Positions 17,171 to 20,689 of a stretch of DNA of 64,000 nt are shown one piece after another. Each line of letters opens with the position of its first letter. Positions within the stretch are counted from its first letter, which is position 1. A model generated the notes under the pieces. The model searched no databases and was not told the DNA's origin. It saw nothing but the letters and a program-made list of their open reading frames with translations. Source of the stretch: an uncultured Candidatus Saccharibacteria bacterium (GTDB lineage: Bacteria; Patescibacteriota; Minisyncoccia; Phycocordibacterales; UBA9973); the NCBI GenBank assembly GCA_964496425.1, contig CAZBZO010000001.1, forward strand, positions 140,368 through 204,367, given 5' to 3'. The position numbers were made by a program, and so were the translations under genes.

Positions 17171-18919
17171 CTACAACACTTCTTTTTGATAGCAACTCTC
17201 GCAATACACTTTTTCAGATCGGTCTGGCGCATAACTTGTCTCGAATTCATTTGCACATTTATCTCCATGATTGTGTTCTTTATTGGTACAGGTACATGCG
17301 CGGTGCCAGAGTTTCCAAGGTAAGGTTCGGCTTTTCATGCGTGTGAAGTATCGACAATTTGGACACGTATGCGGCAATGCAATGCCGAGCTTCCGGTACA
17401 TATCAAGTTCATTCTGAGTAATACGGAAAGCATTTGTGCAAATTTCATTACACAAAGCTTTGTGAGCGCATGGAAGTGTGTGGTTTAGAATATCACTCGT
17501 CACATTAGAAATTGAATCGGGAATTTCTTCAGATTCTATTGTGTAAACATGGGCTTTCTTTTCTTCTGGAAGAGTTCGGAATCCTGCTGCTTCAATTTCG
17601 TCTTTTGTAAGTGGATTAAATTCAAATGCAGCAGTCTCATTATATGTAAATCGAGAAAAATTTATCGGGAAATATTCCCCATAGGTATACACTCGCCTTT
17701 TCTCGTCGACGTACGGCAGTGTTTTCATCTGATCTATTATTTCTGTTCGCAAACGCTCGTATTCACTTTCAGAATATTGAGTATTAAAAATACAAAATTC
17801 CTTCTGCTTGAGGTTCACACATCCAAAACATTTTTTGACATAATTACATCCATCGCAATACTCTACGTCTTCCGTATGGCCGATATTGTAAGAGAAAAGT
17901 GAATGCTGGTTTCCACGGCCAGTCACAGTAAGCTCATAAGAATTCTCCACTCGGCCAGCCATAGAAAGGTCGTATGAGTCCACAACATGGTTAGTCGTAA
18001 TATTTACGAATTTTATATTCTCCGAATCTTGCACAGAAAACGACGAACGCACATTTTTGGAATTGGAAATAAAATCCCCAGTGCAATTTTCAGACTGGAT
18101 GATTACCGCAAAGCGATGGATTGCATCTTTCATGAGACGAAGATATTCTTCCAGGAGTTTTGTCTGCAGTTGATAGGATCCAGCTCGGTATTCCTTCATC
18201 CGCTTTTTATATTCATCTGCCGACAATTGTTCATTTCTGAATACGTAACTTCGATTACGGAGATTTGCAGACATAAAACAATTGGTGCAATTCACACTAT
18301 CAAATAAATAGGCTGAATCGATACATTGATGCGATCGAGTCAAAAACGCTGAGGCATAATTCCCAATCGAATCCACGACGTCATAGCAATTCTCATTCTC
18401 GGAAAAATTGAGGCAGTCGATACACATCCTGTTGCCATTTTCTCCTCCCCAGGAATACAAAATATCCTCGCTTCGAACAATACCGTACGAAAGATAGATC
18501 CGGCTACTTCGGTAAATATAATTTGAAAAAGTAATTCCTTCGCCGTTATTATTAGTGTGCTCAATGTGGAGCTGCGGCACACTTTTCATAAAATCATAAA
18601 ACTGCGGAAAGAATGGTTTGGAGAAATCGTACTCCCTGCCGTATGACATGGGGTCCCAATCATCGCTGAAATAACACTTTGTACAATAGACAATGAATGG
18701 AGAATTCGGATGATACATCGAGGCTACACTTTCACCACATTTATCACAATTTCGTTTATACAGTGATCGATGGTTAATAGAAGCAAGCCTGCGGAGCATG
18801 CGACACCCGGGACAAAAGGTCGGTGGCGGGACTTTGATTTTTTCATAAAATGCAAAATCTTCCAACTCAATCGGGAAGTTTTGCTTACAATTCTGACAAT
18901 TTTTTGTTTCGGTCTGCAT
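17171..18919 (-). CDS. Large Cys-rich multi-zinc-ribbon protein, paralog 1 (function unknown)
   Basis: N-terminal C-x2-C…C-x2-C (twice), a central Cys ladder and a C-terminal cluster of CxxC pairs. Paralogous along its whole length to 18947-20689. Confidence 0.6.
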   Translation of the reverse strand: MQTETKNCQNCKQNFPIELEDFAFYEKIKVPPPTFCPGCRMLRRLASINHRSLYKRNCDKCGESVASMYHPNSPFIVYCTKCYFSDDWDPMSYGREYDFSKPFFPQFYDFMKSVPQLHIEHTNNNGEGITFSNYIYRSSRIYLSYGIVRSEDILYSWGGENGNRMCIDCLNFSENENCYDVVDSIGNYASAFLTRSHQCIDSAYLFDSVNCTNCFMSANLRNRSYVFRNEQLSADEYKKRMKEYRAGSYQLQTKLLEEYLRLMKDAIHRFAVIIQSENCTGDFISNSKNVRSSFSVQDSENIKFVNITTNHVVDSYDLSMAGRVENSYELTVTGRGNQHSLFSYNIGHTEDVEYCDGCNYVKKCFGCVNLKQKEFCIFNTQYSESEYERLRTEIIDQMKTLPYVDEKRRVYTYGEYFPINFSRFTYNETAAFEFNPLTKDEIEAAGFRTLPEEKKAHVYTIESEEIPDSISNVTSDILNHTLPCAHKALCNEICTNAFRITQNELDMYRKLGIALPHTCPNCRYFTRMKSRTLPWKLWHRACTCTNKEHNHGDKCANEFETSYAPDRSEKVYCESCYQKEVL

Positions 18920-18946
18920 TCTTTTCCCTACTTACTATTTATTGTT

Positions 18947-20689
18947 CTATAGTACCTCCTGCTGGTAACACTGCTCGCAATAGAGCTTCTCTGGTCGCTC
19001 TGGCGCGTAACTTGTTTCAAATTCGTTTGGACACACACCTTGATGCTGATGATTTTTATTGTCACACATACAATGCCTATGCCAAAGTCGCATCGGATTT
19101 CGACTCGCTTCACGCTCGCTGTGCCGGCAATTGGGACAGAGGCTTGGAATTGGGAGACCGAGATCTTTGTAAAATAAAACTTCCTCAGGAATAACCCGAA
19201 ATGCTTTGGTGCATAGATGCTCACATGTACCACCGTGGTCACAAGCAATCGTTTCTTTTGTAATACTGGTATCGATATCTAAAATACTATTCGGAATATC
19301 GTCCGTGCTAATACTTGGCTCATGTAATTTTTGCTCTTTCTGCCGCCAAGAAAATCCTCTTTCGAGAGCGTGCTGTTCAGTAAGAGGAAAATATTCTTGA
19401 ACGACAGTTTCATTGTATGCATACGGAGAAAATTCGGGCGGGAAAAATTCTCCAAACGTGTATATGCGACCAGAGGCATCTATATACGGCATAGCATCCA
19501 TATGCTTTTTTATTTTCTCCACTAGCGTGTAGTATTCTTCTTTTTCGTATTGTTGGTTGAGAATACAATATTCAGCACCGCGGAGACTTGCGCAGCCAAA
19601 ATAGTTTTTGCCTTGCGCGCTTAAGTGCGAGTACCACATATCATCCACTGCTCCGATCGAATCGATTGAGAGCCTAATCATGCGACTATTCTGTGCGCCA
19701 CCACCAGTGTATTCGTAGATAAGCTCGGTTGTGCCGATATGTGTCGCATCAAAACAATCACGGCATTTAGGCGCTCGAAAAATATATTTACAATCTTCGC
19801 ACTCCACAACAGTAAAGCCAGAGTAAATATTTTTTGAATCACGAATATCATTACCGGACGAATTGGGAGAATTGAGAATACGACTCCATTTATGAATCGC
19901 GTTTCGCTCCAAAGCTTTGTATTTTTCTATCGCTCTCCTCTGCCCTTCTCGTGTAAAAAGCGCAAGTTCTTTTTTCTTTGTTTCGTAGGTTTCCTTGGTA
20001 TATTGGATGTTTTCAATCACGTAGCGCTTATTGCGAAGGTTGGTCGAAAGAATACAATCCTGACAATTCGTACAATCATATACAAAGTGGCAGCCAATAC
20101 ACTCGCGGCAATAATGACTAAAAGTAACCCGGTAATTTTTATTACCAACAATACAACCATGACAGTATTCAGAATTCGTCATATCTTCACAGTCCACAAG
20201 ATAGCGACTGGTATCGCTATTTTTTGAATAATATATGTATTCTGATCCATAGACTGTCGAATACGAAAGATACACATCTTTTGAATCATGACTATAATTC
20301 GAAAAATCAGCATTTTGTGCATTGCTCTGATGCACGCCTTGCTTGGGAGTCGCCACAAACAAATCATGCCACTGAGTAAAGAAAGGCCGTGAAAAATCAT
20401 ACTCCCGACCATAGGAAAGCGGGTCCCATCTATCACTGCGATAGCACTCTGGACAATAGACGGTAAAACCTTTATCAGCAGCATACATAGAAAAAGTATT
20501 TTTATTACAAAGCGCACAGGATACTTTATAGAGCGCTCGTTCATTCCGCCAGATCAACCGCCGGACGAGACGGCATTCGGGACACCACGAAGGCGCCGGT
20601 ACTCCCATCTTTTCATAAAACGAAAAATCGTCTGGCTCGATCGTGAAATCTTGTTTACAGTTTTGGCAATTTTTAGTTTCCGTATGCAT
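18947..20689 (-). CDS. Large Cys-rich multi-zinc-ribbon protein, paralog 2 (function unknown)
   Basis: Roughly 60% identical to paralog 1 at both termini by eye (MxTETKNCQNCKQ.F.IE..DF.FYEK…; …CPNCR…LWHR.C.C.NK.H.H…CYQ.EVL). Confidence 0.6.
   Translation of the reverse strand: MHTETKNCQNCKQDFTIEPDDFSFYEKMGVPAPSWCPECRLVRRLIWRNERALYKVSCALCNKNTFSMYAADKGFTVYCPECYRSDRWDPLSYGREYDFSRPFFTQWHDLFVATPKQGVHQSNAQNADFSNYSHDSKDVYLSYSTVYGSEYIYYSKNSDTSRYLVDCEDMTNSEYCHGCIVGNKNYRVTFSHYCRECIGCHFVYDCTNCQDCILSTNLRNKRYVIENIQYTKETYETKKKELALFTREGQRRAIEKYKALERNAIHKWSRILNSPNSSGNDIRDSKNIYSGFTVVECEDCKYIFRAPKCRDCFDATHIGTTELIYEYTGGGAQNSRMIRLSIDSIGAVDDMWYSHLSAQGKNYFGCASLRGAEYCILNQQYEKEEYYTLVEKIKKHMDAMPYIDASGRIYTFGEFFPPEFSPYAYNETVVQEYFPLTEQHALERGFSWRQKEQKLHEPSISTDDIPNSILDIDTSITKETIACDHGGTCEHLCTKAFRVIPEEVLFYKDLGLPIPSLCPNCRHSEREASRNPMRLWHRHCMCDNKNHQHQGVCPNEFETSYAPERPEKLYCEQCYQQEVL

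What the first reader, a model, noticed from the sequence alone, without database searches (positions are those of the whole stretch)
17171..20689. Tandem pair of about 580-aa Cys-rich multi-zinc-ribbon paralogs of unknown function, in an operon with yqgF and a tRNA-binding protein
The two adjacent genes are clearly paralogous. The N-terminal region is roughly 60% identical (MxTETKNCQNCKQ.F.IE..DF.FYEK..VP.P..CP.CR…). The C-terminal region is also Cys-rich (…CPNCR…LWHR.C.C.NK.H.H…CYQ.EVL). The middle parts are diverged and contain Cys ladders (…C..C…C.NC…). Each has at least 8 CxxC pairs, which suggests multiple zinc ribbons and possibly nucleic-acid binding. They are translationally coupled downstream of yqgF (2-nt spacing) and upstream of a CsaA-like tRNA-binding protein. 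I cannot assign them to a known family from sequence alone. Duplication plus rapid mid-region divergence is typical of defence or host-interaction proteins but is also seen in RNA-metabolism factors.
Basis: partly seen in the sequence, partly recalled or inferred. Interest (0 to 1): 0.6.

Follow-up and report, generated by a model that had tools for sequence, protein, structure and literature searches.

The report
Uncharacterised multi-zinc beta-solenoid paralog pair
The two adjacent genes are real, anciently diverged copies of a very large, unannotated protein family of Parcubacteria/Paceibacteria (tiny symbiotic bacteria) that joins zinc-finger modules at both ends to two beta-solenoid domains. 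In other genomes this family sits in arrays next to orphan VirD4-like ATPases inside the hsp70 gene cluster, not with yqgF or the tRNA-binding gene.

Summary
Two minus-strand ORFs, ZnA (18947-20689, 580 aa) and ZnB (17171-18919, 582 aa), are 41% identical over their full length. The ends are 61% and 54% identical, the middle 24-37%. They follow ruvX/yqgF after 2 nt and precede a tRNA_bind gene.

No Pfam, NCBIfam, PADLOC, PHROG or PDB family is matched above threshold. AlphaFold models are confident (pLDDT 88.5 and 86.3). They show a duplicated double treble-clef zinc module at each terminus, including an exact CxxC-x17-CxxC. These flank two homologous narrow beta-solenoids, whose "Cys ladders" are mostly Cys/Ser-interchangeable core positions.

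The family is large: at least 5,384 clusters at 50% identity, all unnamed, from the Patescibacteria/Parcubacteria group. It forms tandem arrays of up to 8 copies. The copies are ancient, since only 3 of 112 have their closest relative in the same locus.

The yqgF/tRNA-binding context recurs in only 2 of 80 loci. In 80 loci chosen only for a soluble VirD4/HerA-like ATPase, 62 carry family members. All 132 are co-oriented with the ATPase, and they often lie between two ATPase paralogs inside grpE-dnaK-dnaJ.

Function is untested. My best guess is a rigid zinc-stabilised adaptor or client of those ATPases. The defence reading is not supported.

The parts
18947..20689 (-). ZnA gene, 580 aa: a member of the uncharacterised multi-zinc double-beta-solenoid family
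   Evidence: ORF. 2,814 homologs, all unnamed. AF2 pLDDT 88.5, pTM 0.88.
20390..20689 (-). ZnA N-terminal double zinc module (residues 1-100). Treble clef C8/C11/C36/C39, followed by CxxC-x17-CxxC at C58/C61/C79/C82.
   Evidence: Ligands are 97-100% conserved. Sub-threshold hits to PF13451, PF23477 and TIGR04272. Homologous to the C-terminal module: hhalign probability 99.3%, E 4e-20.
19997..20335 (-). ZnA beta-solenoid 1 (residues 119-231), with a Cys/Ser/Asn ladder of period 3/12. C206/C209/C212 are nearly invariant.
19898..19996 (-). ZnA helical hairpin between the solenoids (residues 232-264), the least conserved segment
19547..19897 (-). ZnA beta-solenoid 2 (residues 265-381), homologous to solenoid 1. 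Both end in the motif LRNKxYCILNKQYxKEEY.
   Evidence: hhalign probability 99.6%, E 1.7e-24. pLDDT above 90.
19250..19546 (-). ZnA conserved acidic alpha/beta linker domain (residues 382-480), with motif MPYxDxxGRxYxYGEFFPxExSPFAYNET
   Evidence: High conservation and net charge of -9.
18950..19249 (-). ZnA C-terminal double zinc module (residues 481-580). Sites C489/C493/C518/C521 and C540/C553-x17-C571/C574, with extra C483, H485, C542, H547 and H549.
17171..18919 (-). ZnB gene, 582 aa: a paralog with the same architecture. The Cys at the ZnA C206 position is Ser.
   Evidence: 41% identity to ZnA. AF2 pLDDT 86.3, pTM 0.87, same order of secondary-structure elements. S at the aligned position 206.
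20692..21108 (-). ruvX/yqgF, immediately upstream with a 2-nt spacer. This is local context, not conserved in the family.
   Evidence: PF03652, E 1.5e-23. Neighbour of the family in 2 of 80 loci.
16765..17118 (-). Stand-alone tRNA_bind (Trbp111/MetG-C/CsaA-like) gene downstream. This is local context, not conserved in the family.
   Evidence: PF01588, E 6.7e-23. NCBIfam metG_C_term 5.8e-28. Found in 2 of 80 loci.
20692..20702 (-). Copy 1 of the exact 11-mer ATAGTAAGTAG (the end of ruvX), 2 nt before the ZnA start codon
18928..18938 (-). Copy 2 of the exact 11-mer ATAGTAAGTAG, 8 nt before the ZnB start codon
   Evidence: 2 matches in the window, 0.02 expected.

Best explanation
ZnA and ZnB are two anciently diverged members of a very large, so far unannotated family of cytoplasmic proteins restricted to the Parcubacteria/Paceibacteria branch of Patescibacteria.

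Shown or modelled: each protein is a rigid body. A double treble-clef zinc module (4 conserved Cys4 sites per protein, plus 1-2 accessory Cys/His sites) is duplicated at the N and C termini. These modules flank two homologous narrow beta-solenoids and a conserved acidic alpha/beta domain.

Shown: across the family, the genes form co-oriented arrays directly beside soluble VirD4/TraD/HerA-like ('orphan T4CP') ATPases, and these arrays are often embedded in the grpE-dnaK-dnaJ cluster.

Inferred: the proteins act as adaptors, clients or regulators of those hexameric ATPases. The conserved zinc modules would dock onto the common partner (the ATPase, or a nucleic acid or protein it handles). The more variable solenoid faces would give each paralog its own specificity.

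The pair in this window is a dispersed copy that was inserted between ruvX and a tRNA_bind gene. Its co-transcription with them is probably incidental.
For: Family and architecture:
- 2,814 and 5,569 homologs at 90% clustering, and 5,384 representatives at 50% clustering, all about 550-600 aa and unnamed.
- Confident AF2 models for both paralogs.
- Internal duplications of the zinc module and of the solenoid.
- Near-invariant ligand sets, including exact CxxC-x17-CxxC spacing. This motif was shown by ICP-MS to bind zinc in M. mazei small proteins (PMC12704099).

Arrays and age:
- 46 of 80 loci hold at least 2 copies, and one holds 8.
- Only 3 of 112 copies have their closest relative in the same locus.

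ATPase link:
- The most frequent neighbour in family-centred loci is a PF02534/DUF87/TrwB-type ATPase, in 21 of 80 loci.
- The reciprocal sample was chosen only for the ATPase. There, 62 of 80 loci (46 of the 54 that are at least 8 kb) carry the family. All 132 copies are co-oriented with the ATPase. In 56 of 62 loci a copy lies within 1 kb of an ATPase gene. In 26 of 34 loci with two ATPase paralogs, copies lie between them.
- The link holds after de-replication: 37 of 41 ATPase clusters at 85% identity.
- Recurrent maps are grpE-ZN-dnaK-T4CPb-ZNn-T4CPa-dnaJ and HTH-TM-T4CP-ZNn.

Literature: 5,713 VirD4-like genes in 2,918 Patescibacteria genomes, only 148 of them near virB4, with exaptation suggested (PMC12102498).
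Against: - This window holds no VirD4-like ATPase or dnaK homolog in its 64 kb, so the link is a property of the family, not of this locus.
- In family-centred loci only 34 of 150 copies sit in a block with the ATPase.
- Synteny could be a frozen accident within a clade whose ATPase is 75-84% identical across the sample.
- No physical interaction, metal content or expression data exist.
- The ATPase is called T4CP-like on modest Pfam scores (E 1e-7 to 5e-5), and it lacks the membrane anchor of true coupling proteins.
Confidence: 0.4

Rival explanations
1. RNA/nucleic-acid-metabolism factor working with RuvX/YqgF and the tRNA-binding protein. The terminal zinc fingers would bind RNA or DNA, and the solenoid would act as a spacer or ruler.
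For: - 2-nt spacing after ruvX here, and the same ruvX-ZN-ZN order in L068.
- Treble-clef fingers are followed by conserved Arg-rich helices (CRxxRRxxWRNER, CRHxER).
- Weak similarity to DksA/TraR and Elf1-type fingers.
Against: - The context recurs in only 2 of 80 loci. In L025 ruvX abuts the tRNA_bind gene with no ZN gene between them.
- The proteins are mildly acidic (pI about 6). The zinc modules are near neutral and the 382-480 domain has a net charge of -7 to -9.
- Multiple ancient paralogs per genome are unusual for a housekeeping RNA factor.
Confidence: 0.15
2. Host-interaction or defence proteins. This would be a diversified repertoire of effectors, perhaps handed by the VirD4-like ATPase to a secretion apparatus and delivered into the host cell of these episymbionts, or an intracellular anti-phage sensor family.
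For: - Large paralog arrays in very small genomes.
- Adjacency to T4CP-like ATPases.
- The solenoid faces are the variable part.
Against: - The copies are ancient and orthologous groups are stable: 3 of 112 closest within the locus, and the 551-aa subfamily is 56-80% identical across genomes.
- No PADLOC or PHROG hits and none in viral contigs.
- No signal peptide. The C-terminus is a structured zinc site rather than a disordered secretion signal.
- Neighbours are housekeeping genes, not islands.
- Most Patescibacteria T4CP homologs are far from virB4.
Confidence: 0.15
3. Structural or cytoskeletal polymer. The beta-solenoids would stack head to tail (like bactofilin or curlin), with the homologous N- and C-terminal zinc modules as joints, and the paralogs would co-polymerise.
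For: - Homologous modules sit at both ends.
- Tandem paralogs are typical of bactofilins (own knowledge).
Against: - pTM 0.88 suggests a closed compact monomer.
- There is no evidence of polymerisation.
Confidence: 0.1
4. Metal or redox protein. The near-invariant C197/C206/C209/C212(/C215) set in the last coil of solenoid 1 would bind an Fe-S cluster or another metal, giving a redox or metal-sensing role, perhaps linked to the stress (hsp70) locus.
For: - CxxCxxC(xxC) at 94-100% conservation, set among otherwise Cys/Ser-interchangeable ladder positions.
- About 30 Cys and 16-20 His per protein.
Against: - ZnB itself has Ser at position 206.
- The fourth position, 215, is Ser in most members of A1.
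- The geometry could not be checked.
- The same period-3 pattern is explained by core packing of a narrow solenoid.
Confidence: 0.1

Closest known systems
Pfam zf_Tbcl (PF13451), zf_Tbcl_2 (PF23477) and NCBIfam TIGR04272 'CxxC-x17-CxxC' small zinc proteins
   Same: The ligand spacing and local sequence match. The F.I...D..FY.K..P.P..CP.CR treble clef is followed by exact CxxC-x17-CxxC spacing. At E<=0.01, 16 of 73 family members hit PF23477 and 6 of 73 hit PF13451. M. mazei members of the CxxC-x17-CxxC group bind zinc (PMC12704099). BFVD 'putative zinc-ribbon domain' phage proteins align to this module.
   Different: The window proteins score below every curated cut-off: 15.5 against 24, 15.6-19.5 against 27, and 12-14 against 36 bits. 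The known members are small stand-alone or repeat proteins. Here the module is duplicated at both ends of a 580-aa beta-solenoid protein.
Narrow beta-solenoid proteins: CsgA-type curlin (8c50), ryegrass ice-binding protein (3ult), Tenebrio antifreeze protein (1ezg), left-handed beta-helix acyltransferases and gamma-carbonic anhydrases
   Different: Sequence identity is 2-10%. There are no hexapeptide or curlin Pfam hits. Foldseek finds nothing at E<=1e-3. Those proteins are secreted and disulfide-bonded, or are enzymes that form trimers. This family has no signal peptide and carries zinc modules.
Type IV coupling protein (VirD4/TraD/TrwB) with its substrates and adaptors
   Same: There is tight, co-oriented genomic linkage of the family to ATPases that hit PF02534, PF10412 and PF12696.
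   Different: The ATPases are soluble, with no N-terminal membrane segment visible in the sequence. They are mostly far from virB4 (PMC12102498) and sit inside the hsp70 operon. The ZN proteins have no relaxase or known effector features, and their C-terminus is a folded zinc site.
LIM domain proteins (CRP1)
   Same: The C-terminal sub-module aligns as W-H-x-x-C...C-x17-YC-x-x-CY with the second finger of CRP1 LIM domains.
   Different: The matches are not significant (E 0.027 and 0.53), and only 1 of 73 members hits Pfam LIM.

Membership tests
zf_Tbcl / zf_Tbcl_2 / TIGR04272 (treble-clef, CxxC-x17-CxxC zinc domains) | HMM score at or above the curated cut-off | tested here: not met
   PF13451: 15.5 bits against 24. 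PF23477: 15.6 (ZnA) and 19.5 (ZnB) against 27. TIGR04272: 14.2 and 12.1 against 36. Only 16 of 73 relatives reach E<=0.01 for PF23477.
zf_Tbcl / zf_Tbcl_2 / TIGR04272 | Two CxxC knuckles separated by 17 residues | tested here: met
   C58xxC61-x17-C79xxC82 is 100% conserved. C553-x17-C571xxC574 is 100% conserved, with the first knuckle expanded to C540...C553.
zf_Tbcl / zf_Tbcl_2 / TIGR04272 | Zinc actually bound | not testable with these tools
   Shown only for M. mazei small proteins (PMC12704099).
Anti-phage defence systems (PADLOC-DB) | Match to a defence-protein model, and a defence-island or mobile context | tested here: not met
   No PADLOC hit at E<=1. Neighbours are housekeeping genes. 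No relatives in IMG/VR.
Left-handed beta-helix (hexapeptide) acyltransferases / gamma-carbonic anhydrases | Hexapeptide-repeat sequence signature (Pfam Hexapep) and catalytic residues at the trimer interface | tested here: not met
Curlin (CsgA) amyloid subunits | Sec signal peptide and Curlin_rpt repeats | tested here: not met
T4SS coupling-protein partners (substrates or adaptors of VirD4-like ATPases) | Conserved genomic linkage to a VirD4/TraD-type ATPase | tested here: met
   This holds at family level. 62 of 80 ATPase-centred loci carry the family, all 132 copies are co-oriented, and in 56 of 62 loci a copy lies within 1 kb of an ATPase gene. 37 of 41 de-replicated ATPase clusters show the link.
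T4SS coupling-protein partners | Linkage present at this locus | tested here: not met
   No homolog of the ATPase or of dnaK in the 64-kb window.
T4SS coupling-protein partners | Physical interaction with the ATPase, or translocation by it | not testable with these tools
RuvX/tRNA-associated RNA-metabolism operon | Conserved co-occurrence with ruvX and the tRNA_bind gene across genomes | tested here: not met
   Found in 2 of 80 loci. In L025 ruvX and tRNA_bind are adjacent with no ZN gene between them.
Bactofilin | DUF583/bactofilin domain match | tested here: not met

The most novel reading that the evidence does not exclude
The family is the variable, substrate-recognising component of a previously undescribed machine specific to Paceibacteria. 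That machine would be built from two soluble VirD4/HerA-like hexameric ATPases embedded in the Hsp70 operon, and it would translocate or remodel protein or DNA. The family's central domains would represent a new class of very narrow beta-solenoid with a Cys/Ser ladder (about 12 residues per coil), possibly with a metal site in the core. This would give the thousands of 'orphan T4CP' genes of Patescibacteria their first functional partner.
Probability: 0.25. Interest if true: 0.8.

Novelty: new variant of a known kind. Interest (0 to 1): 0.6.

Why it matters
Patescibacteria (CPR) have genomes of under about 1 Mb, yet some Paceibacteria devote up to 8 adjacent genes of 1.7 kb each (about 14 kb) to this one unannotated family. 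It is therefore likely to matter to their biology. A recent survey counted 5,713 VirD4-like coupling-protein genes in 2,918 Patescibacteria genomes. Almost all are away from any type IV secretion locus, and the authors could only suggest that these genes were 'exapted for other functions' (PMC12102498). The tight, co-oriented linkage found here between those ATPases, this zinc/beta-solenoid family and grpE-dnaK-dnaJ gives that open question a concrete, testable partner. A cultured relative exists for testing (Minisyncoccus archaeiphilus, class Minisyncoccia, which appears among the locus titles). For genome annotation, the family merits a profile of its own, because several thousand proteins are currently 'hypothetical'.

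Tried and rejected
- Curated family searches (Pfam, NCBIfam, PADLOC, PHROGs) gave only sub-threshold zinc-finger hits.
- Sequence searches against the PDB with one protein and with the family profile found nothing significant. The best was the LIM protein CRP1 at E 0.027 and 0.53.
- Viral contigs hold no relative. tblastn of the N-terminal module against GenBank phages gave 3 weak hits, either unannotated or annotated as hypothetical proteins.
- Literature searches for the Pfam and TIGR names, for Cys-rich paralogs in Patescibacteria, and for T4CP partners found no description of the family.
- The yqgF/tRNA operon idea was rejected as a family property.
- Recent gene conversion or recent duplication was rejected: third-position identity is 0.50 and flat along the gene.
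- I tested whether one subfamily (the 551-aa group) is the ATPase-adjacent one. It is only mildly enriched there, 6 of 33 against 2 of 80.
- Net charge does not support a non-specific nucleic-acid binder.
- The promoter and terminator scan was at chance level.
- Exact look-up of the two proteins returned no names or organism.
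Full report
**1. What is in the window**

On the minus strand there are two adjacent ORFs. ZnA is 18947..20689 (580 aa) and ZnB is 17171..18919 (582 aa). They align end to end at 41% identity, E 2e-167.

Identity is uneven along the proteins:
- first 100 residues: 61%
- last 100 residues: 54%
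- the two central beta-rich domains: 35% and 32%
- the helical hairpin between them: 24%
- residues 382-480: 37%

ZnA has 33 Cys and 13 CxxC motifs. ZnB has 30 Cys and 10 CxxC motifs.

The ruvX/yqgF homolog (20692..21108; PF03652, E 1.5e-23) ends 2 nt before the ZnA start codon. ZnB starts 27 nt after ZnA ends. A 117-aa tRNA_bind protein (16765..17118; PF01588, E 6.7e-23) starts 52 nt after ZnB. It scores closest to the MetG C-terminal/Trbp111-type models.

No other copy lies in the 64-kb window. Promoter-like and terminator-like sites are at chance frequency.

**2. No curated family matches**

Pfam, NCBIfam, PADLOC and PHROGs give nothing above threshold. The only recurrent signals are sub-threshold hits of the termini:
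- zf_Tbcl (PF13451, residues 5-43)
- zf_Tbcl_2 (PF23477)
- TIGR04272 'CxxC-x17-CxxC' (residues 51-86 and 554-580)

Among 73 family members scanned one by one, 16 reach E<=0.01 for PF23477 (best 1.2e-5) and 6 for PF13451. The PDB sequence set gives nothing significant, either with one protein or with the family profile. The best match is the LIM protein CRP1, at E 0.027 and 0.53.

**3. Architecture**

AlphaFold2 with a 121-sequence alignment gives a confident model of ZnA (pLDDT 88.5, pTM 0.88). A second run gives the same layout for ZnB (pLDDT 86.3, pTM 0.87). The order of elements is:
- a zinc knuckle hairpin plus helix, twice (residues 1-100)
- a helix
- a beta-rich repeat domain (119-231)
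- a helical hairpin (232-264)
- a second beta-rich repeat domain (265-381)
- a long helix and a small alpha/beta region (382-480)
- again two knuckle-plus-helix units (481-580)

Profile-profile comparison of sub-alignments shows two internal duplications:
- N-terminal module (residues 11-85) against C-terminal module (493-578): probability 99.3%, E 4e-20.
- First beta domain against the second: probability 99.6%, E 1.7e-24.

The ligand sets conserved at 87-100% are:
- C8/C11/C36/C39
- C58/C61/C79/C82, an exact CxxC-x17-CxxC
- C489/C493/C518/C521
- C540/C553-x17-C571/C574
- additional conserved residues C483, H485, C542, H547 and H549, which could form one or two further sites

Small M. mazei proteins with the CxxC-x17-CxxC motif have been shown by ICP-MS to bind zinc (PMC12704099). 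That zinc is bound here is an inference.

All of these are at 2-10% identity. Foldseek finds nothing at E<=1e-3 in the PDB or BFVD, apart from small phage 'zinc-ribbon domain' proteins that match the zinc module.

Cys and Ser alternate freely at these positions across the family. Examples are position 167 (C 47%, S 45%), position 200 (S 77%, C 19%) and position 215 (S 66%, C 31%). I read them as small inward-facing core residues of a very narrow solenoid, not as zinc ribbons.

The exception is the last coil of solenoid 1. There C197, C206, C209 and C212 are 91-100% conserved. A metal site is possible but untested, and ZnB itself has Ser at position 206.

The proteins are mildly acidic (pI about 6). 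The 382-480 domain is strongly acidic, with a net charge of -7 to -9. No signal peptide or membrane segment is apparent from the sequence or the model.

**4. The family**

- A word-indexed search found 2,814 clusters (90% identity) with ZnA as query.
- An exhaustive profile search of 1.84 billion representatives found 5,384 proteins at E<=1e-3 and 2,224 at E<=1e-30.

The listed members are almost all 530-610 aa. Every source name is 'hypothetical protein', apart from one 'CxxC-x17-CxxC domain-containing protein'.

Named sources are Nomura-, Lipton-, Staskawicz-, Brenner-, Giovannoni-, Jorgensen-, Kaiser- and Sungbacteria, Paceibacterota and Minisyncoccia. All of these belong to the Parcubacteria group of Patescibacteria. 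A few labels look like binning or naming artefacts ('Burkholderiales', 'Bacteroidia', and a TPA series named 'Saccharibacteria'). I did not verify them.

No relative was found in IMG/VR.

**5. Tandem arrays of ancient copies**

In 80 genome loci centred on a family member (plus or minus 6 kb), 46 hold at least two copies. One holds 8 (L018) and one holds 7 (L077).

Of 112 full-length copies that have a same-locus paralog, only 3 have their closest relative in the same locus. Median identity is 43% to the best same-locus copy, against 59% to the best copy in another genome.

For the window pair, third-codon-position identity at identical residues is 0.50 and flat along the gene. The nearest relatives of ZnA and ZnB elsewhere are only 44-50% identical.

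The duplications are therefore old and the copies are stably retained. This argues against an arms-race repertoire.

**6. Genomic context**

The ruvX and tRNA_bind neighbours recur in only 2 of the 80 loci, L068 and L025. In L068 the order ruvX-ZN-ZN is kept, and a transporter-like gene lies before tRNA_bind. In L025 ruvX is followed directly by tRNA_bind and dedA, with the family member elsewhere. I therefore infer that the pair was inserted into an older ruvX-tRNA_bind-dedA-pilM block.

Other neighbours are housekeeping genes: ribosomal proteins, rpoA, secF, frr, rseP, uvrC, ftsW, and a SpoU-type methyltransferase (names by my reading of the sequences).

The most frequent neighbour is a roughly 500-aa soluble ATPase, with 27 genes in 21 loci. 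It hits T4SS-DNA_transf (PF02534, E 1.2e-7), DUF87/HerA, TrwB_AAD_bind and TraG-D_C. DnaK (15 loci), GrpE (8) and DnaJ (7) follow.

**7. Reciprocal test**

I aligned 13 of these ATPases (64-89% identical, with one divergent paralog at 42%). I then fetched 80 metagenome loci selected only for the ATPase. The results were:
- 62 of 80 loci carry at least one family member. Among the 54 loci of at least 8 kb, 46 do.
- All 132 family genes are on the same strand as the ATPase.
- In 56 of 62 loci a family gene lies within 1 kb of an ATPase gene.
- In 26 of 34 loci with two ATPase paralogs, family genes lie between them.

After collapsing the ATPases at 85% identity, 37 of 41 clusters still show the link.

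A rough expectation for random placement can be estimated, although this is my own estimate and not a computed control. With about 6 copies among about 800 genes and a 20-gene window, it would be about 15%.

Two maps recur:
- grpE - ZN - (paaX-like, opposite strand) - dnaK - ATPase-b - ZN x1-4 - ATPase-a - dnaJ. Examples are L101, L104, L116, L118, L150 and L158. The ATPase is immediately followed by dnaJ in 35 of 80 loci.
- (sigma70_r4 + HARE-HTH protein) - (membrane protein) - ATPase - ZN x1-6. Examples are L097, L108 and L133.

A 2025 survey reported 5,713 VirD4-like T4CP homologs in 2,918 Patescibacteria genomes. Only 148 were near virB4, and the authors suggested exaptation (PMC12102498). 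It does not mention this family. My literature searches found no description of the family.

The window itself has no homolog of the ATPase or of dnaK, so ZnA and ZnB are dispersed copies. In family-centred loci, 34 of 150 copies are in a block with the ATPase, against 98 of 113 in ATPase-centred loci.

**8. Interpretation**

Shown:
- the paralogy
- the internal duplications
- the conserved ligand sets
- the size, taxonomic range and age of the family
- the linkage to the ATPases and the hsp70 genes

Modelled: the fold.

Inferred:
- that zinc is bound
- that the protein is cytoplasmic
- that the conserved terminal modules dock onto a common partner, while the more variable solenoid faces differentiate the paralogs
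- that the partner is the VirD4/HerA-like ATPase, or what that ATPase handles

I put about 0.4 on this last group of inferences taken together. The rivals are:
- An RNA or DNA factor tied to RuvX and tRNA_bind: 0.15. It is weakened by the non-conserved context and the acidic charge.
- A secreted effector or defence repertoire: 0.15. It is weakened by the age of the copies, the absence of defence, viral or secretion features, and the folded zinc C-terminus.
- A solenoid polymer: 0.1.
- A metal or redox protein using the CxxCxxC coil: 0.1.

**9. Novelty and score**

The building blocks are known kinds: treble-clef zinc fingers, a beta-solenoid, and an association with a coupling-protein-type ATPase. 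The architecture, the family and its linkage appear to be undescribed and unannotated.

I rate it a new variant of a known kind. There is a 0.25 chance that it marks a new machine specific to Paceibacteria.

Interest is 0.6. It is not a surprise at the level of mechanism yet. It is a large, conserved and expanded family in minimal genomes, and it gives the orphan T4CP question a testable handle.

Noticed in passing
window 20692-20702 (-) and 18928-18938 (-): The exact 11-mer ATAGTAAGTAG occurs only twice in the 64 kb (0.02 expected). One copy is 2 nt before the ZnA start codon, where it forms the last codons and stop of ruvX. The other is 8 nt before the ZnB start codon. With the preceding AATAAA it carries stop codons in all three frames. 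The genes are otherwise saturated at synonymous sites, and the motif is absent at the equivalent places in L068. It could be a duplication footprint kept by selection, a translation or stop element, or chance. This is unexplained.
   Followed up: partly
L082-L161, e.g. L101 4137-12046, L116 3-12557, L118 699-12633: In many Paceibacteria the hsp70 gene cluster is interrupted. The order is grpE - ZN - paaX-like (opposite strand) - dnaK - soluble VirD4/HerA-like ATPase b - ZN array - ATPase a - dnaJ. The ATPase is unusually conserved (75-89% identity across the sampled loci), far more than the ZN genes.
   Followed up: partly
window 44881-44954 (-): ARAGORN calls a tRNA with anticodon UUA ('tRNA-Stop'). 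In the canonical cloverleaf register the anticodon loop is CUUUUAA, which gives tRNA-Lys(UUU) with a G27.A43 mismatch at the top of the anticodon stem. It is most likely an ordinary tRNA-Lys and not a suppressor.
   Followed up: partly
window 21528-23192 (-) and 21144-21527 (-): Upstream of ruvX and co-oriented with it lie a 554-aa ORF and an abutting 127-aa ORF. The 554-aa ORF has no family hit, an N-terminal hydrophobic segment and an HESGH (HExxH) metalloprotease-like motif. The 127-aa ORF has no hit. Neither has a homolog in the 80 family-centred loci.
   Followed up: no
L068 4199-5950 (+): The first of the two ZN paralogs after ruvX in this related genome has lost the second knuckle of the C-terminal treble clef (HPSV in place of CPNC). 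It keeps the CxxC-x17-CxxC site, so individual zinc sites are dispensable in some paralogs.
   Followed up: no
L097 6964-9110, L133 1199-3392, L037 11639-13765: A conserved gene pair often precedes the VirD4-like ATPase and ZN array. The first gene is a 339-aa protein with Sigma70_r4 plus HARE-HTH domains. The second is a membrane protein of about 370-440 aa with no Pfam hit. The membrane protein might supply the anchor that the soluble ATPase lacks.
   Followed up: no
window 14361-15981 (-): Genes that look like type IV pilus assembly genes of the pilM/pilN/pilO type (by my reading of the sequences), together with a DedA/VTT-domain membrane protein (16027-16644), lie directly downstream of the tRNA_bind gene on the same strand. 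This block is conserved in L068 and L025.
   Followed up: partly
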